NCBI GenBank assembly: GCA_964628995.1
Contig: CAZVPA010000103.1
Location: 1-8,860, forward strand
Length of the DNA: 8,860 bases
Direction of reading: 5' to 3'
Origin: an uncultured Nitrososphaerota archaeon
GTDB lineage: Archaea; Asgardarchaeota; Njordarchaeia; Njordarchaeales; Panguiarchaeaceae
Shown here: positions 45 through 5,673 of the stretch, piece by piece
Numbering within the stretch: the first letter of the stretch is position 1
Layout of the letters: every line of letters starts with the position of its first letter
Notes under the pieces: generated by a model
Told to the model about the DNA's origin: nothing
What the model saw: the letters and a program-made list of their open reading frames with translations, nothing else
Databases searched by the model: none
Made by a program: the position numbers and the translations under genes

Positions 45-614
45 CTACTCCACAATCTCTCTGAATGCCCTAGCCATTCTATATTCTTCAACTTTCTTCA
101 GGACACGACCATGTTTACTTCCTCTACAGATCGCCACCACAGCTTCCTTAGCGGCAAGCACATCCCAATATTTCCCAATTATTGCCACTTTCTTACCGCT
201 TATCGCTATTTTGACCCCCAACTCGTCCTCTATCTTAGATTTTATTTTTCCTCCTTTTCCAATCAATCTTGCTCTTATTCTGCTTAGGTCTCTTCCGCTT
301 TTGGCATATTCCTCAATATTTATTACCTCCAAGGTGTAGTCTGATTTTTCCGCCAAAATTAGGGCATCTTGAGGCGAAAAACCATGTGCTATTGCCTCAA
401 CCACCATCTTGGCCTTTAGGGCATTTTCGATATTGTCTCTGGGTGCCACTATTAATATCTCCTCCCTGCCTGGTCGTACTTTTATTTTCACTCCGAGAAG
501 TCTCTCTATTTTTTTCTCTACTGATCTCCTCGTTCCGATGACCACGCCAATACGCTCCTCACTTACCGACACAACCATGGCTATTTTTCCTTCATTATCC
601 GATGTTGTTTCCAT
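45..614 (-). CDS. KH-domain RNA-binding protein, archaeal Dim2/Pno1-like (two KH modules)
   Basis: 189-aa ORF. The C-terminal KH module has a canonical GXXG loop (LIGKGGKIKSKIEDELGVKI). The N-terminal KH-like module has a degenerate loop (VIGTRRSVEKKIERLLGVKIKV), as is typical of Dim2/Pno1. A GGTG Shine-Dalgarno-like motif lies about 6 nt upstream of the ATG at 614. Only 22 nt separate it from the stop of the upstream gene, with no TATA-like element, so co-transcription is likely. Confidence 0.8.
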   Translation of the reverse strand: METTSDNEGKIAMVVSVSEERIGVVIGTRRSVEKKIERLLGVKIKVRPGREEILIVAPRDNIENALKAKMVVEAIAHGFSPQDALILAEKSDYTLEVINIEEYAKSGRDLSRIRARLIGKGGKIKSKIEDELGVKIAISGKKVAIIGKYWDVLAAKEAVVAICRGSKHGRVLKKVEEYRMARAFREIVE

Positions 615-636
615 AATGACACCAGCAACATACCAC

Positions 637-1317
637 CTAATATTCCTGATCGAGAATCCTTATGACATTTCTAAAAATTATTAGAAGTCCCCGCTTAGCT
701 TTTTTCTCTATATCTCTAGACATTTCTGCTTCCCTGATGATATTTATCAGCTTACTGATATACTCTGAGTATCGCCTCAGATGTGGATTTTGAAGATTAT
801 CAATACATATTTTTATCATGGATAGGTTTTCTAGTAATGCTTTTTTATCTCCAACGCTCATACTTTTCCTCGCGCTGAGAATGTGTTGCCTCAGAGATTC
901 TATGGTATCCTCCTTTTTATATCGACTTTTAATAATCCGAATAACGTTTCTCAGCACATCAATTAAATCAAAGGATGTAATATCAGCATCGGATGGGTGA
1001 ACGCATCCAATGGATAAACCATGATAACTCACAAATATACATTCGGAACCATCAACGTTCATGTTTAGCTGGAAGACAGGTATGTCTCTACATGACACAC
1101 TTATGCTACTCCTCACTCTCAAATCCATCATATATTTCATATCAACCTGATAGAGGACCCATGAACGCACTGAGGGCAATACTTGGAGAATTCTTTTGTA
1201 TTTTTCGTCACCCATGAACAGTAACTCTAAACCATTATCATCGGATAAATAAACAGCCCTTGCCCCAGCATCGATAAGTTTTCCAACGAGTTTTCTTAAT
1301 TCTTCAACTCCAGACAT
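637..1317 (-). CDS. Roadblock/LC7 (MglB-like) domain protein with about 110-aa helical C-terminal extension
   Basis: The track ORF runs to 1374. I prefer the internal ATG at 1317 (MSGVEELRKLVGKLIDAGARAVYLSDDNGLELLFMG...). The 19 upstream codons (MFCFSFCAFVFKDNTDGQL) lie in a T-rich intergenic-looking stretch, and a TATA-like TTTTTAAAG sits about 26 nt upstream of 1317. The N-terminal pattern (helix, then ARAVYLSDDNGLELL strand pair, then helix and strands) resembles Roadblock/LC7. The functional call is by eye only. Confidence 0.55.
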   Translation of the reverse strand: MSGVEELRKLVGKLIDAGARAVYLSDDNGLELLFMGDEKYKRILQVLPSVRSWVLYQVDMKYMMDLRVRSSISVSCRDIPVFQLNMNVDGSECIFVSYHGLSIGCVHPSDADITSFDLIDVLRNVIRIIKSRYKKEDTIESLRQHILSARKSMSVGDKKALLENLSMIKICIDNLQNPHLRRYSEYISKLINIIREAEMSRDIEKKAKRGLLIIFRNVIRILDQEY

Positions 1318-1337
1318 TAGTTGACCATCGGTATTAT

Positions 1338-1347
1338 CTTTAAAAAC
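1338..1347 (-). promoter_or_regulatory. TATA-box-like element upstream of the Roadblock-like gene
   Basis: The minus strand reads GTTTTTAAAG, centred about 26 nt upstream of the ATG at 1317, which is the spacing expected for a leaderless or short-leader archaeal transcript. It is preceded (1350-1414) by several oligo-T runs on the minus strand that could terminate the GTPase transcript. Confidence 0.4.
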
Positions 1348-1414
1348 AAAAGCACAAAAGGAAAAACAAAACAAGTACTACTCAAATAGGAAAAACTATT
1401 AACAAATAAAATTC

Positions 1415-2296
1415 TTAAGGAAGCTCCTTTATCATTGACGCCAATATTTCTATGAACCTAGTTTTGGCATCAGGCCTTATTGCAACCATTGGGTATGAGG
1501 GAAAACCAGTAAGTTCTTCTATGGCTGACGCTGGAAGTCTATCTGGTAAATCTTGCTTATTAGCTATCAATACAAAACGCGAGTAGGGTGTTATCTTCAT
1601 TAAATATGGGAGTATTTCTTTCTGGAGTCTCTCAACATCATCTCTTGAGGAATCTGTCACCAGAACCACAAAGTCCGATCCCTCTGTTGTCACCATCCAT
1701 GTACGCCAGTATTCTGGCTGGCCAGCCACAGTAAATAGTGTTACCTTGAAGGGCTCTATACCTTCTATCTCAAGTTCTTCAACATCCGCCAGTATTGTTG
1801 GAATGTGCTTAGTTATGGAAATACCACGTGCTACAAGTTTTACTATTGTTGTTTTCCCGACACCACCATATCCAGTCAGTGTACACTTAACTGGTAATAG
1901 TTTTATTGCCTCCTCAACACACTCCCCAAACTTTATAGCCCCATCACTTTTTTCTTCGGCCTTCGATGTGTCTGAGAATATCTCAATAGCGTCCTCCATA
2001 AGTTTTCTTAGTACCTTCTCAAGTTCCTCAGCACCATTAACTCTATCCGCCAAAACCGATAACATAAAGTCTGATGTAATCATTATAGAGATTCTATACT
2101 GCCCCAGTTCTATTGAGTCCACCTCCTTGACGAAGTGTTCTCTCATGCCCAAAAGTATCCTATTTATCAGTGGGAAATTTGGTGTGAAATTGGCATAAGT
2201 ATCATAGAAAAGCTCATTACCGTAGGCGTCAAATAGTGCTACAGCACGAATCACCATATCATACACCCTATATACCATATATACTATAGACTTCAC
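1415..2296 (-). CDS. Small Ras-superfamily GTPase (MglA-like) with N-terminal longin/roadblock-like domain
   Basis: 293-aa ORF. G1 P-loop is GYGGVGKT (nt 1850-1873). A candidate switch I Thr is in HIPTILAD. G3 is TVAGQ (nt 1718-1732), with Thr in place of the usual Asp of DxxGQ, as in MglA TVPGQ. G4 is NKQD (nt 1550-1561). Residues about 14-107 (MVIRAVALFDAYGNELFYDTY...IELGQYRISIMITSDFMLSVLADR...EELEKVLRKLMEDAIEIF) show a strand-strand-helix-strand-strand-strand-helix pattern like longin or sigma-adaptin folds. The start is uncertain, with Met1 at 2296, Met7 or Met14 at 2257 all possible. Confidence 0.8.
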   Translation of the reverse strand: MKSIVYMVYRVYDMVIRAVALFDAYGNELFYDTYANFTPNFPLINRILLGMREHFVKEVDSIELGQYRISIMITSDFMLSVLADRVNGAEELEKVLRKLMEDAIEIFSDTSKAEEKSDGAIKFGECVEEAIKLLPVKCTLTGYGGVGKTTIVKLVARGISITKHIPTILADVEELEIEGIEPFKVTLFTVAGQPEYWRTWMVTTEGSDFVVLVTDSSRDDVERLQKEILPYLMKITPYSRFVLIANKQDLPDRLPASAIEELTGFPSYPMVAIRPDAKTRFIEILASMIKELP

Positions 2297-2355
2297 TTTT
2301 ATTTTAGATTTGAGATAAGCTTATAGCTTTTCCAAAATGAGGGAAGTGAAGTCCC

Positions 2356-2664
2356 ATGTCGATGACATTCAATCAGTTAAAGCATAGGGTAATGGTAATC
2401 CTTGATGCTATTAGGAAAAAGCATCCATCTCAACACGCGCGAGATGAAACAACAATAAATAGGTTGGCAGGCATCGTAGATCATATGATAGAGGCAAATT
2501 TTAGTGAGGATAATATTGGGGAAATTCTCGATATGATAAAATCGATGAGTGTCACGCTATTTAACCAAGTACTTACAAAATCAAAATACTCAACAAAATG
2601 CCGACAGATTCACAGTAAGTACGTTTGGAGGCAAAAACTAAAAAAAGCAAGGGCTCAAAAATAA
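2356..2664 (+). CDS. Hypothetical small protein (102 aa, predicted helical, basic C-terminal tail)
   Basis: A 102-codon ORF is unlikely by chance in stop-rich AT-rich DNA. No competing ORF exists on the other strand. It is divergent from the GTPase gene across a 59-nt spacer containing TTATAG/TTTTATTTTAG TATA-like runs. I recognise no motif. Confidence 0.5.
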   Translation: MSMTFNQLKHRVMVILDAIRKKHPSQHARDETTINRLAGIVDHMIEANFSEDNIGEILDMIKSMSVTLFNQVLTKSKYSTKCRQIHSKYVWRQKLKKARAQK

Positions 2665-2673
2665 GGAACTCTT

Positions 2674-4149
2674 TTACTCAATGCTTGTTATTATAAACCT
2701 CGTACCATCTTTCGTGTCTTCGAGTATTATACCTAGTTGTCGAAGTTTTTCTCTGATTTCATCCGCAAGATCATAGATTTTCCTGTTTCGTAGTTTTGCT
2801 CGGATATCGATTATTAAGTCCAAAAGTTTCCTCGAAATTTTGGCATCACTCGACATGTAGTTGGGAGGGAGAATAACTCCTACTTCTTTTCCCCGGATTT
2901 TCTTTTCAAGAATACGTTGATCTATGCTTTGCTGAAGTATGCCCATTATGCCTCCTAGTTCCCGGATTAGCTTTGCTATATCAACCAGTTGTTTGTTGCT
3001 AAAAGTATCATAGTCCCTCATGACCCACCTAGATATCTCGTGGAGGATCCTTATTGCCTCTACCGTATTAAGATTGTCGGCCAGAGCTATTAGAAATCTC
3101 CTCTTATAGTCATTAACTTTCTCCATGAAAACCTCCTCAGCAAGCCTGCCATGTTTTTCCGGGGGAGAAAACTCAGCCATGAAGAGGGCCCTATAGATCT
3201 CATCAAGCTTCTTCTCAGCCAATTTTAGTTTTTTCCAGCTAAATTCTAGCTGTCTCCGATAATGCACACTCAGTAGGAAATACCTTATGGTTTCGGAATC
3301 ATATTGTTCTAGCGCATTTTTTATCGTAACTATGTTCCCAAGACTCTTGGCCATTTTTTCCTCCCTAATAGTTAACAGGCCTACATGGAACCATATCTTT
3401 GCGAGTGGTTTTCCTGTGAGGGCTTCACTCTGTGCTATCTCGTTTTCATGGTGTGGAAATATCAGATCCTCACCCCCGCCATGTATTTCTATTGTCTCGC
3501 CAAGGTGCTTGAGAACCATAGCGGAACATTCTATATGCCATCCTGGGCGGCCTTCCCCCCATGGACTTGGCCAAGATGGTTCACCAGGCTTCGCTTTTTT
3601 CCATAGAGCAAAATCTAGTGGGTCTTCCTTATACGGACTGGGCTCAATTCTTGCTCCAGCTCTCATTTCCTCTATGTTCCTCTTAGAGAGTTTACCATAG
3701 CCTTTGAATCTCCTTACCCTGAAATAAACACCATCCTTCGTCTCGTAGGCATATCCTTTCTCTATGAGGCCTCTAACAAACTCGATTATCTCTGGAATAT
3801 GAGCTGACGCCCTAGGCTCGACATTGGGAGGCAATACGTTTAATGCCTTCATCGCATCATAAAACTCATAATAATACCGCTCAGCGATTTCAAAGGGGGA
3901 TCTATTCTCTTCATGAGCTCTCCTAATTATCTTATCATCAACATCGGTCACATTTCTCACATACTTTACGTCATACCCCAAGTATTTTAGTAGCCTAATA
4001 AGAACATCAAATACAACATACGCCCTCGCATGTCCCAAATGTGGCACATCATATACTGTTGGCCCACAGAAGTATGCCCTTACGACTCTATTATTAATCC
4101 TTACCTTTCTACGAGAAAGCGTATCAAATAGCTTGATGTCTATTGGCAT
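2674..4149 (-). CDS. cysS: Cysteinyl-tRNA synthetase (class I)
   Basis: 491 aa. Contains CGPTVYD, the HIGH motif (HLGHARAY), WHIECS (Zn/cysteine site), the KMSKS motif (KMAKSLGN) and a C-terminal GIILEDTKDGTRF typical of CysRS. A GGTGAT SD-like motif lies about 11 nt upstream of the ATG, and an AAAAATTTAAAAG TATA-like run (minus strand, about 4204-4216) lies further upstream. Confidence 0.95.
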   Translation of the reverse strand: MPIDIKLFDTLSRRKVRINNRVVRAYFCGPTVYDVPHLGHARAYVVFDVLIRLLKYLGYDVKYVRNVTDVDDKIIRRAHEENRSPFEIAERYYYEFYDAMKALNVLPPNVEPRASAHIPEIIEFVRGLIEKGYAYETKDGVYFRVRRFKGYGKLSKRNIEEMRAGARIEPSPYKEDPLDFALWKKAKPGEPSWPSPWGEGRPGWHIECSAMVLKHLGETIEIHGGGEDLIFPHHENEIAQSEALTGKPLAKIWFHVGLLTIREEKMAKSLGNIVTIKNALEQYDSETIRYFLLSVHYRRQLEFSWKKLKLAEKKLDEIYRALFMAEFSPPEKHGRLAEEVFMEKVNDYKRRFLIALADNLNTVEAIRILHEISRWVMRDYDTFSNKQLVDIAKLIRELGGIMGILQQSIDQRILEKKIRGKEVGVILPPNYMSSDAKISRKLLDLIIDIRAKLRNRKIYDLADEIREKLRQLGIILEDTKDGTRFIITSIE

Positions 4150-4470
4150 TCCAAAGACATCACCAATAGCATCCAGCCGAAAAACACTCCTTTTTTTCCT
4201 CTTTTAAATTTTTACTATTCAATGGGACTGTCCACCAAGATAAACTATCCTACTTTCAAGCTAGATTTCCTAACTAGGCTCCATGAAGCCCATATCATTA
4301 TCCGGTCAGTAGACGGTCTCTCATTCAACGGAATGATTACGAAGCCTTCACTTGATGTTACATCCCTATTGAAATGGATCGCAGGAAATAAAAACAACCA
4401 TTGAAAAATTTATTCTAGTAGGGAATATCGACGAAGGGTAATATTTTCTCAAAAGTAAGAGATTATTAGA

Positions 4471-4479
4471 GTGGCGCGG
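4471..4479. repeat. 9-nt direct repeat GTGGCGCGG, copy 1 (bounds permuted 5S unit)
   Basis: Identical to 4593-4601. The offset is exactly 122 nt, which equals 118 nt of 5S plus the 4-nt UUCG linker. Confidence 0.9.
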
Positions 4480-4592
4480 GGGTTTCCGAGTTCGAAATGG
4501 GTTCGGGCGTGGCCCGCGCCCTATGGCCGTCCGCCGAAGCGGACAGCACCGTCCTTTCGCCTGGGGTCTCCCACCAGACTACTCGGAGCGGC
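4471..4592 (-). rRNA. 5S rRNA, circularly permuted gene order (3' half - UUCG - 5' half), 122-nt minimal unit
   Basis: Minus strand 4534->4471 is the 5S 5' half, GCGGACGGCCAUAGGGCGCGGGCCACGCCCGAACCCAUUUCGAACUCGGAAACCCCCGCGCCAC. It carries the helix I 5' strand, loop A CAUAG, helix II, helix III CCGA/UCGG and the loop C box CCCAUUUCGAAC. Minus strand 4592->4539 is the 5S 3' half, GCCGCUCCGAGUAGUCUGGUGGGAGACCCCAGGCGAAAGGACGGUGCUGUCCGC. It carries helix V, loop E AGUA/GAA, helix IV and the helix I 3' strand. UUCG (4538->4535) links GUCCGC to GCGGAC. The two halves total 118 nt when placed in canonical order. Confidence 0.75.
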
Positions 4593-4601
4593 GTGGCGCG
4601 G
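4593..4601. repeat. 9-nt direct repeat GTGGCGCGG, copy 2
   Basis: Identical to 4471-4479. On the minus strand both copies read CCGCGCCAC, the helix II 3' strand. Confidence 0.9.
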
Positions 4602-4623
4602 CTTAGCCTTCGGCCCCCACACC
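4593..4623 (-). other. GC-rich 5' extension of the permuted 5S unit (degenerate partial 5S copy, leader arm of enclosing stem)
   Basis: The minus strand reads GGUGUGGGGGCCGAAGGCUAAGCCGCGCCAC. The segment GAAGGCUAAGCCGCGCCAC resembles the canonical archaeal loop B/helix II 3' strand (compare GGAAGUUAAGCCGCUCAC in Sulfolobus), and is closer to it than the copy at the 3' end of the unit (GGAAACCCCCGCGCCAC). Confidence 0.6.
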
Positions 4624-4656
4624 TTTCTCGCATAATAATGTAGTAGACAATATGCT

Positions 4657-4674
4657 ATTTAAAAATTTTTAAAT
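4657..4674. promoter_or_regulatory. Perfect 18-nt AT palindrome ATTTAAAAATTTTTAAAT, a TATA-box candidate for the 5S transcript and possibly bidirectional
   Basis: The sequence is its own reverse complement. Read on the minus strand, TTTTTAAAT lies about 35-45 nt upstream of the GC-rich block. That predicts a start near 4630-4640, which is where the leader arm of the enclosing stem begins. Confidence 0.4.
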
Positions 4675-4869
4675 GTTGGAATGAAGCATTAACCAGTAGA
4701 AATGGCCTATTAAGGGTGATATCTAGATTACTTTTATTCTTAGACATTATCCATTGGTGTTCCTGATAAACTTGATTCAGGTTAGATACAAAACTACTTC
4801 GTGTTCTCGTTATGTTTCCTTATATATTTCTATAAAACGAATACTATAGGAAAAATAAAATAGGGAAAT

Positions 4870-5673
4870 ATGATGGCTCAAGGGAGTATCGCCGATAAGA
4901 ATATGTGTAAGAGCGAAGAAATGGTAATTTATGAAAAATCACCACTTGTGCGTCTATGGACTCACAGGATTCGAAAATTCTTAATTAACCTAATTGACCA
5001 GCTCAGGATGGATGGGCTTATAGAATCAAACTTTGAAGTTGATCTAATTGATCTAGTGAAGTCTACTATTGCTTGTGTCTTAGATAATATTAATATTAAG
5101 AATAAGTTGCGGGTATATATATATGACATATCCATTGCGTGCTTTTGGCTTAAACTTCAGGAATGTGGTACGACTAAAATTTCCCCAATAAAACTTGTAA
5201 GTATGGCAAAAAAAATCCTTGGCAGGCGTGTAACTCACGGAAAAGTATTAAAAGTATTGGCATATATTAAAAAATATAGACATGGAAGAGGCTTGGATCC
5301 TATTGAAGATATAAAAAGGCATATATTCATCATACTGGATAACATGTTTAGGGACAAGGAGTTCATACAAACAAGATTCAATACAGATGATGTATACTCA
5401 ATGAATTTGATAGATCTCAAGCTAAATATTATTAAAAATGTAGGTAAATATCTATTGTTGATTCCACGTGAGAAAATTGTTGGAATACCTAGGAGAGTAT
5501 TTAGTGCAGTCTTTCTTTATGCTTTGTTGCGGTTGTTATCTGAGGAACATGGGGGTGTTCAGATATACTCGAGTGACATTGAAAGGTTCTCGGGGGTATC
5601 GCGATTCACGATATTAAGAAAGTATAAGACTATAAAAAAGTACCTACATGGTAATCGTGTATATGTACAGTAA
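4870..5673 (+). CDS. TFB/TFIIB-like protein: two cyclin-fold repeats, no N-terminal Zn-ribbon or B-reader
   Basis: 267-aa ORF. The C-terminal segment GIPRRVFSAVFLYALLRLLSEEHGGVQIYSSDIERFSGVSRFTILRKYKTIKKYL matches by eye the second TFB cyclin repeat (GKSPxxLxAAALYIAxxLxGExRTQxEVAxVxxVTEVTVRNRYKEL). The first repeat candidate is YDISIACFWLKLQECGTTKISPIKLVSMAKKILGRRVTHGKVLKVLAYIKKY. There is no CxxC pair anywhere. TATA-like TTATATAT/TATAAAA lies 30-50 nt upstream. Confidence 0.6.
   Translation: MMAQGSIADKNMCKSEEMVIYEKSPLVRLWTHRIRKFLINLIDQLRMDGLIESNFEVDLIDLVKSTIACVLDNINIKNKLRVYIYDISIACFWLKLQECGTTKISPIKLVSMAKKILGRRVTHGKVLKVLAYIKKYRHGRGLDPIEDIKRHIFIILDNMFRDKEFIQTRFNTDDVYSMNLIDLKLNIIKNVGKYLLLIPREKIVGIPRRVFSAVFLYALLRLLSEEHGGVQIYSSDIERFSGVSRFTILRKYKTIKKYLHGNRVYVQ

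What the first reader, a model, noticed from the sequence alone, without database searches (positions are those of the whole stretch)
4462..4639. 24-bp interrupted leader/trailer stem with 3-nt bulges encloses the permuted 5S, resembling a processing stem
Seen directly by hand pairing: the leader 4639->4610 pairs with 4489->4462 as 7 bp, UGC bulge, 3 bp, AAA/A loop, 10 bp (GGUGUGGGGG:CCCCCGCGCC, two G-U), AAA bulge, 4 bp (CCGA:UCGG). Archaeal 16S, 23S and some 5S precursors, as well as permuted tRNA and SRP RNA precursors, are excised and often circularised from such stems by the splicing endonuclease acting on bulge-helix-bulge motifs. In this stem the two AAA bulges lie on opposite strands, each 5' of its strand of the 10-bp helix. 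That is the correct BHB handedness, but the central helix is 10 bp rather than 4 bp, so it is not a canonical 3-4-3 BHB. The stem also sequesters the downstream CCGCGCC copy, which would force helix II to form with the upstream copy. The precursor and mature folds may therefore differ.
Basis: partly seen in the sequence, partly recalled or inferred. Interest (0 to 1): 0.65.

Follow-up and report, generated by a model that had tools for sequence, protein, structure and literature searches.

The report
Splicing-type stem around permuted 5S rRNA
The stem is real: it is the conserved processing helix of a back-to-front 5S ribosomal RNA gene in Njord-type Asgard archaea, and it carries a tRNA-intron-type cutting motif that, once cut and rejoined, would restore a normal 5S sequence, probably as a closed circle.

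Summary
Only its inner 14 bp are robust: a 10-bp helix (4623-4614 with 4482-4473), the trailer AAA bulge (4485-4483) and a 4-bp helix CCGA:UCGG (4613-4610 with 4489-4486).

Eight distinct orthologous loci (Njordarchaeota MAGs, Guaymas-type metagenomes, Logan assemblies) keep this architecture. In the 10-bp helix 80 of 80 cells pair, and 8 of 10 pairs show compensatory double changes.

The outer 3-bp and 7-bp A/U arms and the leader AAA are specific to this window.

The motif is a 3-4-3 type bulge-helix-bulge (BHB). CCGA:UCGG is the central helix, with AAA 3' of UCGG and AGG/AAG 3' of CCGA. No closing helix follows the leader bulge, so this is the relaxed bulge-helix-loop form.

Cutting after the second bulge nucleotide on each strand and ligating gives ...CUCGGAA|GCUAAGCC..., a universal 5S sequence. 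A covariance model built from the in-silico spliced sequences matches ordinary 5S genes end to end.

Helix I is capped by a tetraloop, so the predicted product is a 124-nt circular 5S rRNA. Cleavage, ligation and circularity are inferred, not shown. I found no report of such a gene in the searchable literature.

The parts
4656..4663 (-). Putative archaeal TATA box, TTTAAATA. It ends 32 nt upstream of the outer helix.
   Evidence: Consensus scan. Comparable boxes lie 25-42 nt upstream in L081, L086, L085 and L213. This is inference only, because the DNA is AT-rich.
4614..4623 (-). Leader strand of the outer processing helix, GGUGUGGGGG.
   Evidence: Pairs with 4482-4473. In 8 orthologs, 80 of 80 cells pair and 8 of 10 pairs show compensatory double changes.
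4610..4613 (-). Leader strand of the central 4-bp BHB helix, CCGA.
   Evidence: Pairs with UCGG 4489-4486. 100% paired in 8 orthologs, with a single one-sided change, A:U to G.U.
4607..4609 (-). Leader bulge AGG (AAG in the orthologs), lying 3' of CCGA. The predicted 5' cut is between 4608 and 4607.
   Evidence: Geometry as in tRNA-intron BHBs of the same lineages. The variable middle nucleotide would be discarded and the invariant G retained. No closing helix h' was found, so this is a relaxed BHL form.
4484..4607 (-). Predicted mature 5S rRNA, 124 nt, permuted in the gene and predicted circular after ligation of 4484 to 4607. In gene order: loop B 3' side (4607-4602), helix II 3' strand (4601-4595), helices V and IV with loops E and D (4592-4548), helix I 3' strand (4547-4539), UUCG cap (4538-4535), helix I 5' strand (4534-4526), loop A CAUAG (4525-4521), helix II 5' strand (4520-4514), helix III and loop C (4506-4486).
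   Evidence: Two sub-threshold Rfam 5S half-matches in swapped order. The in-silico spliced form aligns with the Rfam consensus with a single one-column gap away from the junction. The canonical structure is 99.5% paired, with 13 of 37 pairs compensatory. Model R1 matches ordinary 5S genes over positions 1-124 of 124.
4486..4489 (-). Trailer strand of the central BHB helix, UCGG. In the mature RNA it is the 3' strand of helix III.
   Evidence: The alternative partner is the internal CCGA at 4506-4503.
4483..4485 (-). Trailer bulge AAA, lying 3' of UCGG. The predicted 3' cut is between 4484 and 4483.
   Evidence: Invariant in 8 orthologs. tRNA-Ile and tRNA-Ser introns in L082 and L087 have the same AA|A bulge at the 3' splice site.
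4473..4482 (-). Trailer strand of the outer helix, CCCCCGCGCC. It contains the 'downstream CCGCGCC copy'.
   Evidence: Covaries with the leader strand. Its resemblance to the helix II 3' strand is lost in L082, L085, L087 and L214.
4462..4471 (-). Trailer side of the window-specific outer arms (CUC 4471-4469, UAAUAAU 4468-4462). Not part of the conserved element.
   Evidence: No counterpart in the orthologs. Unstable in the longer fold.
4624..4639 (-). Leader side of the window-specific outer arms (AUUAUUA 4639-4633, UGC, GAG 4629-4627, AAA 4626-4624). Not part of the conserved element and probably partly upstream of the transcription start.
4451..4454 (-). T4 run, a candidate archaeal terminator 18 nt after the outer helix.
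   Evidence: T runs of 4 or more follow the helix in L086, L087 and L085 as well. Inference.

Best explanation
The stem is the leader/trailer processing helix of a circularly permuted 5S rRNA gene.

The primary transcript runs in this order: short leader, 3' two-thirds of 5S, tetraloop cap of helix I, 5' third of 5S, short trailer. The leader and trailer form a 10-12-bp helix. That helix stacks on a 4-bp helix, leader CCGA with UCGG; the UCGG is borrowed from helix III.

Together with the trailer AAA (3' of UCGG) and the leader AGG/AAG (3' of CCGA), this is a bulge-helix-bulge motif. It is of the relaxed bulge-helix-loop type, because nothing closes the leader bulge.

The tRNA-splicing endonuclease is predicted to cut after the second nucleotide of each bulge, that is, after 4484 and before 4607. 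RtcB-type ligase would join the two ends. UCGG then re-pairs with the internal CCGA to form helix III.

The product would be a 124-nt covalently closed 5S rRNA, with helix I capped by UUCG and the junction ...CUCGGAA|GCUAAGCC....

Shown here: the sequence architecture, its conservation and covariation, and in-silico restoration of a canonical 5S. Inferred: cleavage, ligation and circularity of the mature RNA.
For: - The pairing is present and lies in the minimum-free-energy fold. It beats shuffles, with 6 of 2000 as good.
- Eight distinct orthologs were recovered. Synteny with the window covers the KH protein, the Arf-family GTPase, the orphan 267-aa ORF, the T2SSE ATPase and EF-1alpha.
- In the 10-bp core, 80 of 80 cells pair and 8 of 10 pairs show compensatory changes. 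Slid controls pair 25-47% (6-sequence version; RNAalifold).
- The central helix is 100% paired and the AAA bulge is invariant. The leader bulge varies only at its middle position.
- The predicted junction restores the universal CGGAAGYUAAGC sequence at exactly the consensus length. The 24-mer spanning the junction is contiguous in more than 120 ordinary 5S genes.
- The canonical 5S fold on the spliced sequences is 99.5% paired, with 13 of 37 pairs compensatory.
- Model R1, built from the spliced sequences, matches ordinary 5S genes over positions 1-124 of 124, up to 114.9 bits. The genomic permuted loci match only as two adjacent pieces.
- tRNA introns in the same lineages show the same geometry and the same AA|A or AA|G 3' bulges.
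- Precedent for the mechanism: the permuted, circular SRP RNA of Thermoproteus (PMC4731332).
- A 5S whose native ends are joined works in E. coli ribosomes (PMC7283268).
Against: - There are no RNA data, so cleavage sites, ligation and circularity are all inferred.
- No helix closes the leader bulge, so the motif fails the strict hBHBh' definition. It needs an endonuclease that accepts relaxed substrates, and the endonuclease type in these organisms was not examined.
- The central helix and both bulges are nearly invariant. Covariation therefore supports only the outer helix.
- In four or five orthologs RNAfold prefers a local hairpin, UUCCG-AACU-CGGAA, over the central helix.
- A conventional 5S gene elsewhere in these genomes could not be excluded, because whole genomes were not available to the tools.
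Confidence: 0.62

Rival explanations
1. The same BHB excision and ligation occur, but the circle is only an intermediate. It is re-opened at the helix I cap, as circular permuted pre-tRNAs are re-opened. The mature product would then be a conventional linear 5S.
For: - Precedent in permuted tRNA genes (cited in PMC4267664) and in circular pre-16S/23S intermediates (PMC12918454).
- The cap varies in length and sequence among orthologs: UUCG, UUUU, UUUG, UUU or CUC, with 0-4 extra base pairs. A spacer might vary in this way.
Against: - The cap is a fully paired extension of helix I closed by a 3-4-nt loop.
- In four of the eight sequences (three lineages) that loop is the stable C(UUCG)G tetraloop.
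- No single-stranded linker or second BHB is present.
- No nuclease is known that opens such loops.
Confidence: 0.17
2. The BHB is cut but the ends are not joined, or are joined only inefficiently. The functional molecule would be a linear, permuted 5S with a nick between helix III and loop B, held together by helices II and III.
For: - Brown-algal mitochondrial 5S is permuted in the final product (PMC4267664).
- Ligation of rRNA ends is incomplete in Pyrococcus (PMC7758197).
Against: - BHB cleavage products in archaea are normally ligated by RtcB (PMC4731332).
- The nick would fall next to a 4-bp helix III in a hyperthermophile-type, G+C-rich RNA.
- The exact restoration of the consensus length across the junction would not be needed if the ends stayed free.
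Confidence: 0.1
3. One reading: a non-canonical 3-10-3 motif, with cleavage in the two AAA bulges (4626-4624 and 4485-4483) that flank the 10-bp helix.
For: Both AAA runs are unpaired in the window's minimum-free-energy fold.
Against: - The leader AAA and the GAG:CUC helix that closes it are absent from all seven other orthologs.
- The bulges lie 5' of the helix strands, opposite to the tRNA-intron BHBs of these lineages.
- The product would carry about 17 extra leader nucleotides inside loop B.
Confidence: 0.02
4. The leader/trailer helix is a processing stem for a different, helix-specific nuclease or for exonuclease trimming, and has nothing to do with the splicing endonuclease. Alternatively, it is a functionless relic of the duplication that created the permuted gene.
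For: - In the window, the leader and trailer strands look like remnants of the two strands of helix II (my inference).
- Archaeal 5S maturation by other nucleases such as FAU-1 is described (PMC7758197, PMC11602121).
Against: - Compensatory changes in 8 of 10 pairs exclude a functionless relic.
- The invariant CCGR-ARG and UCGG-AAA modules, and the exact junction they predict, are unexplained by a generic stem.
Confidence: 0.07

Closest known systems
Permuted, circular SRP RNA of Thermoproteus tenax and T. uzoniensis (Plagens et al. 2015, PMC4731332)
   Same: - The gene is permuted at the DNA level.
- A short leader and trailer fold into a BHB with a 4-bp central helix.
- The tRNA-splicing endonuclease and RtcB are invoked.
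- Ligation restores a conserved structural element, and the mature RNA stays circular.
- The host is a thermophile with many, or non-canonical, tRNA introns.
   Different: - The RNA family differs (SRP RNA versus 5S rRNA).
- The lineage differs (Thermoproteales versus Njordarchaeales-type Asgard archaea).
- That case is proven by RNA-seq, northern blots and in-vitro cleavage. This one is sequence-based prediction only.
Circularly permuted tRNA genes (Cyanidioschyzon merolae; also described in some archaea)
   Same: - The 3' half lies upstream of the 5' half.
- The leader/trailer BHB or BHL is cut.
- The ends are ligated into a circle.
   Different: tRNA circles are re-opened by RNase P and tRNase Z at a linker to give a linear product. 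Here helix I is capped by a tight loop, with no recognisable re-opening signal.
BHB processing stems of archaeal 16S and 23S pre-rRNA, circular 23S in ribosomes, and permuted 23S of Pyrococcus/Thermococcus (PMC12918454, PMC7758197, bioRxiv 10.64898/2026.03.23.713588)
   Same: - A long leader/trailer helix carries a BHB.
- The excised rRNA is circularised.
- Some lineages keep the circle, or a permuted form of it, in the ribosome.
   Different: - Those genes are collinear. Any permutation arises only at the RNA level.
- 5S is explicitly described as not using this route (PMC12918454).
Permuted mitochondrial 5S rRNA of brown algae (Valach et al. 2014, PMC4267664; Rfam mtPerm-5S)
   Same: A 5S molecule in which helix I is a closed hairpin and the ends lie elsewhere.
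   Different: - It is organellar.
- The ends lie at the three-way junction, between the helix I domain (alpha) and the helix IV/V domain (gamma).
- The RNA stays permuted and linear.
- There is no BHB and no ligation.
Low-abundance circular 5S species from ordinary 5S genes (Sulfolobus, Pyrococcus abyssi, Halobacterium; PMC12558985, bioRxiv 10.64898/2026.03.23.713588)
   Same: Circular RNA that contains 5S sequence in archaea.
   Different: - Their junctions are heterogeneous.
- They have no BHB.
- They are interpreted as intermediates or degradation products.
- Their genes are not permuted.

Membership tests
Bulge-helix-bulge (hBHBh') substrate of the archaeal splicing endonuclease | Central helix of exactly 4 bp | tested here: met
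   CCGA (4613-4610) pairs with UCGG (4489-4486). 100% paired in 8 orthologs, with one one-sided change, A:U to G.U.
Bulge-helix-bulge (hBHBh') substrate of the archaeal splicing endonuclease | Two 3-nt bulges on opposite strands, each 3' of its strand of the central helix | tested here: met
   The trailer AAA 4485-4483 follows UCGG, and the leader AGG 4609-4607 follows CCGA. The handedness was checked against tRNA-Ile, tRNA-Gly and tRNA-Ser introns in L082, L081 and L087. The leader 'bulge' is delimited on one side only; see the next rows.
Bulge-helix-bulge (hBHBh') substrate of the archaeal splicing endonuclease | Outer helix h of at least 2 bp closing the first bulge | tested here: met
   A helix of 10-12 bp; 80 of 80 cells pair and 8 of 10 pairs are compensatory.
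Bulge-helix-bulge (hBHBh') substrate of the archaeal splicing endonuclease | Second helix h' of at least 2 bp closing the other bulge | tested here: not met
   CUAAG (4606-4602) cannot pair with the bases 5' of U4489 (hand pairing). RNAalifold proposes none. The motif is therefore the relaxed BHL/hBH form, which fits the looser definition used in PMC4731332: a 4-bp helix flanked by at least one 3-nt bulge.
Bulge-helix-bulge (hBHBh') substrate of the archaeal splicing endonuclease | Cleavage by EndA at symmetric positions, leaving 2',3'-cyclic phosphate and 5'-OH ends | not testable with these tools
   Needs an enzyme assay or end-specific RNA-seq.
5S rRNA (Rfam RF00001) | Score at or above the Rfam gathering threshold on the genomic sequence | tested here: not met
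   No hit at the gathering threshold in the window or in four orthologous loci. There are two half-matches of 25.9 and 21.4 bits in swapped order. The failure is what a permuted gene would produce.
5S rRNA (Rfam RF00001) | Three-way junction with helices I-V and conserved loops A, C and E, in collinear order after processing | tested here: met
   The in-silico spliced sequences align with the consensus with a single one-column gap away from the junction. The structure is 99.5% paired, with 13 compensatory pairs. Model R1 matches about 70 ordinary 5S genes end to end.
Permuted non-coding RNA gene expressed through circularisation | 3' part encoded upstream of the 5' part, with the native ends joined by a short linker | tested here: met
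   Helix I is capped by UUCG at 4538-4535.
Permuted non-coding RNA gene expressed through circularisation | Ligation of the new termini restores a conserved element of the RNA | tested here: met
   The junction CUCGGAA|GCUAAGCC equals the universal loop B / helix III sequence. The junction G pairs with an invariant C.
Permuted non-coding RNA gene expressed through circularisation | Circular RNA detected in vivo | not testable with these tools
   No transcriptome data were accessible.

The most novel reading that the evidence does not exclude
Njordarchaeales-type Asgard archaea have no collinear 5S gene. Their ribosomes would carry a covalently closed circular 5S rRNA that can be made only by the tRNA-splicing endonuclease and ligase acting on a permuted gene. 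This would be the first DNA-level permuted rRNA gene in a cellular (non-organellar) genome and the first obligatorily circular 5S. The BHB would have arisen directly from the duplicated, self-complementary UCGG-AAG module of a tandem 5S duplication.
Probability: 0.5. Interest if true: 0.85.

Novelty: new variant of a known kind. Interest (0 to 1): 0.78.

Why it matters
- It would extend BHB-dependent excision and circularisation to 5S, the one archaeal rRNA thought to be exempt. It would also make ribosome biogenesis in a whole Asgard order depend on the tRNA-splicing machinery.
- It explains why standard 5S models fail on these genomes. The Rfam model misses the gene in the window and in all four orthologous loci scanned with it. 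That affects annotation and the MAG quality criteria that require a 5S gene.
- It offers a natural test of whether ribosomes tolerate, or benefit from, an end-less 5S at high temperature.
- It gives a concrete case of how a BHB can arise from a tandem duplication.

Tried and rejected
- The search for related loci with the neighbouring CysRS returned only distant bacterial homologs, at most 47% identity. It gave no orthologous loci.
- An exact look-up of the window's 267-aa ORF found nothing on record.
- Contigs encoding homologs P0002 and P0005 (L208-L212) carry no permuted 5S next to the gene.
- Pairing of the helix II 5' strand with the downstream CCGCGCC copy was rejected: 66.7% paired and no covariation.
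- A closing helix h' for the leader bulge was looked for by hand and in RNAalifold output. None was found.
It is therefore uninformative on absence.
- Nine literature searches found no description of a permuted archaeal 5S gene, nor of a circular archaeal 5S made by BHB excision; only low-abundance circular 5S species from ordinary genes are reported. Subscription-only papers are not covered.
- A weak C/D-box-like Rfam hit at 4710-4768 (+), 17.9 bits and E = 6.4, lacks proper C/D boxes and was not pursued.

Full report
**What is in the window**

On the minus strand, 4623-4473 is a G+C-rich island (55% in the 200-nt windows covering it) in 32-41% G+C DNA. Rfam finds nothing at gathering thresholds. 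A permissive scan gives two adjacent sub-threshold 5S matches in swapped order:
- 4614-4538 matches the helix V/IV half plus the 3' strand of helix I.
- 4534-4430 matches the 5' strand of helix I, loop A, helix II, helix III and loop C.

The two strands of helix I are joined by a UUCG loop (4538-4535). This is a circularly permuted 5S gene.

The flanking genes point to an Asgard archaeon. They encode cysteinyl-tRNA synthetase, a KH/Pno1-like protein, an Arf-family GTPase, a T2SSE-type ATPase and EF-1alpha. No ORF of 60 aa or more overlaps 4462-4639 on either strand.

**Checking the observation**

RNAfold puts GAG:CUC, the 10-bp helix, the AAA bulge and CCGA:UCGG in the minimum-free-energy structure of both tested stretches.

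The leader/trailer duplex has -30.3 kcal/mol, against -18.2 +/- 3.5 for dinucleotide shuffles; 6 of 2000 shuffles do as well. The trailer is also the best partner of the leader within +/-650 nt.

The 7-bp A/U arm is unstable in the longer context.

**Orthologs**

Pattern scans that demand the permuted order found seven further loci:
- Njordarchaeota GB_136 (L081, identical to L084).
- Candidatus Njordarchaeum guaymaensis GB_154 (L085), with a close metagenomic relative (L082).
- Njordarchaeota B13_G17 (L087).
- A MAG titled Nitrososphaerota (L086, identical to L083).
- Two Logan contigs, L213 and L214, reached through homologs of the neighbouring orphan ORF.

The loci are syntenic with the window. 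EF-1alpha is 88% identical to L087 and the Arf-family GTPase is 84% identical to L086. In total there are eight distinct sequences (alignment A3).

**The helix is under selection**

- In the 10-bp core, all 80 cells form standard pairs.
- Eight of 10 pairs show changes on both sides. The strand pairs include GGUGUGGGGG/CCCCCGCGCC, UGCCCCUGGG/CCCAGGGGCA, CGCAUCGGGG/CCCCGAUGCG and CGCGUCGAGA/UCUCGGCGCG.
- Sliding the partner by 1-3 columns drops pairing to 25-47%. Searches give the 6-sequence version.
- The next pair outward holds in 7 of 8 sequences, and the one after that in 3 of 8. The conserved helix is therefore 10-12 bp.

The window's GAG:CUC, A/U arm and leader AAA have no counterpart elsewhere.

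A TATA-like box ends 32 nt upstream of the helix, and similar boxes lie 25-42 nt upstream in four orthologs. With the usual archaeal spacing the transcript would start near 4632, so the A/U arm is probably not in the RNA. This is inference.

**The real motif**

Immediately inside the outer helix every ortholog has two modules:
- Leader: CCGA (or CCGG) followed by AGG/AAG.
- Trailer: UCGG followed by AAA.

CCGR:UCGG is a 4-bp helix that is 100% paired. Each 3-nt run lies 3' of its strand of that helix. This is the arrangement of a bulge-helix-bulge.

I checked the handedness and cut positions against tRNA introns in the same lineages:
- L082 tRNA-Ile(GAU) has CUGA:UCAG as its central helix, with bulges UA|U and AA|A.
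- L081 tRNA-Gly(CCC) carries a 15-nt intron in a non-canonical position, defined by comparison with intron-less orthologs. Its central helix is UAGG:CCUA, with bulges AU|A and AA|G.
- L087 tRNA-Ser has CUGC:GUAG, followed by AA|A.

In each case the cut falls after the second bulge nucleotide.

That is the opposite handedness, and its leader member is not conserved.

One requirement of the strict motif is not met. No helix closes the leader bulge. The element is therefore of the relaxed bulge-helix-loop kind, which heteromeric and other broad-specificity endonucleases accept (established knowledge; definition as in PMC4731332). The non-canonical tRNA-Gly intron hints at such an enzyme, but I did not examine it.

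**What the cuts would produce**

Cutting after 4484 (AA|A) and before 4607 (AG|G) and joining the ends gives ...CCCAUUUCGAACUCGGAA-GCUAAGCCGCGCC....

- The only variable bulge position (G or A in the leader) is discarded. The retained AA+G is invariant.
- Once opened at the helix I cap, the spliced sequences align with the Rfam 5S consensus with a single one-column gap away from the junction.
- The 24-mer spanning the junction is contiguous in more than 120 ordinary 5S genes.
- The canonical five-helix structure is 99.5% paired, with 13 of 37 pairs compensatory. The junction G pairs with an invariant C.
- A covariance model built from the spliced sequences matches ordinary 5S genes over all 124 positions in about 70 loci. 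The best is a Thermoprotei MAG at 114.9 bits.
- The same model hits the genomic permuted loci only as two abutting pieces.

Helix II uses the upstream CCGCGCC strand, which covaries (GGAGGAG:CUCCUCC in L082 and L085). The downstream look-alike does not.

**Mechanism proposed**

1. In the precursor, UCGG is held by the leader CCGA.
2. After excision it re-pairs with the internal CCGA (4506-4503) to form helix III.
3. The native ends are joined by a tight cap, which is C(UUCG)G in four of the eight sequences (three lineages). Other orthologs have 2-4 extra pairs and a 3-4-nt loop. No second processing signal is visible.
4. The simplest product is therefore a 124-129-nt circular 5S.

The mechanism has a proven precedent in the permuted circular SRP RNA of Thermoproteus (PMC4731332). 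A 5S with joined native ends functions in E. coli (PMC7283268). Cleavage, ligation and circularity are nevertheless untested here.

The alternatives I retain are re-opening at the cap and an unligated, nicked molecule.

**Origin (inference)**

- The leader CCGA-AAG-CUAAG is two transitions away from the 5S segment UCGG-AAG-CUAAG.
- In the window, the leader GGUGUGGGGG and the trailer CCCCGCGCC resemble the two strands of helix II.

A tandem duplication truncated at both ends would leave exactly such repeats. Because UCGG is nearly self-complementary, a direct repeat of UCGG plus three nucleotides folds into a 4-bp helix with two symmetric 3-nt bulges. Cutting at equivalent positions then restores one copy of the repeat.

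**Novelty**

The searchable literature holds no permuted archaeal 5S gene. A 2026 paper states that 16S and 23S, but not 5S, go through excision and circularisation (PMC12918454). Circular 5S species reported so far are minor, heterogeneous and not linked to a BHB. Permuted 5S is known only in algal mitochondria, with a different break point and no ligation.

I rate this a new variant of a known kind: a known mechanism and a known RNA in a new combination, conserved across a clade.

Noticed in passing
L081 6042-6127 (-): tRNA-Gly(CCC) carries a 15-nt insertion, AAUACAUCUCCUAAA, between the D-arm and the anticodon stem. The intron-less orthologs L086 3166-3239 and L087 5850-5922 lack it. This is a non-canonical-position intron with a readable BHB (UAGG:CCUA, bulges AU|A and AA|G). 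ARAGORN mis-called the gene as tRNA-Val.
   Followed up: partly
L081 6042-6208 (-); L086 3069-3239 (+); L087 5581-5922 (+): Two or three tRNA genes lie immediately upstream of the permuted 5S on the same strand in three orthologs. The window has none. Co-transcription was not examined.
   Followed up: no
L086 (CAZWPQ010000034.1), whole locus: The record is titled 'uncultured Nitrososphaerota archaeon'. It is nevertheless syntenic with the window and with Njordarchaeota loci, and it shares the permuted 5S. The taxonomic label is probably wrong.
   Followed up: partly
window 45-4149 versus L086 1-2725: Relative to the 5S gene, the block CysRS / 102-aa ORF / Arf-family GTPase / 245-aa ORF / KH protein is inverted between the window and L086.
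   Followed up: no
window 1415-2296 (-): An Arf/Ras-family small GTPase with an N-terminal extension of about 130 aa that has no Pfam match. It is 84% identical in L086. This is an Asgard-type eukaryotic-signature protein.
   Followed up: no
window 4870-5673 (+): A 267-aa protein with no Pfam domain and only 7 relatives besides itself among 5.8 billion clustered proteins. In the contigs long enough to show it, a T2SSE-type ATPase follows, then EF-1alpha where the contig extends that far. It appears to be a lineage-specific gene of unknown function.
   Followed up: partly
window 4710-4768 (+): A weak C/D-box snoRNA-like Rfam match (17.9 bits, E = 6.4) lies between the 5S promoter region and the next ORF. 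The boxes are poor. I mention it only because a C/D box sRNA gene sits next to the permuted SRP RNA gene of Thermoproteus.
   Followed up: no
window 4595-4623 (-): The leader GGUGUGG (4623-4617) can also pair locally with the upstream CCGCGCC (4601-4595), giving a mini helix II-like hairpin that would compete with the processing helix. The complementarity is lost in at least four of the seven other sequences, so I consider it fortuitous or a relic.
   Followed up: partly
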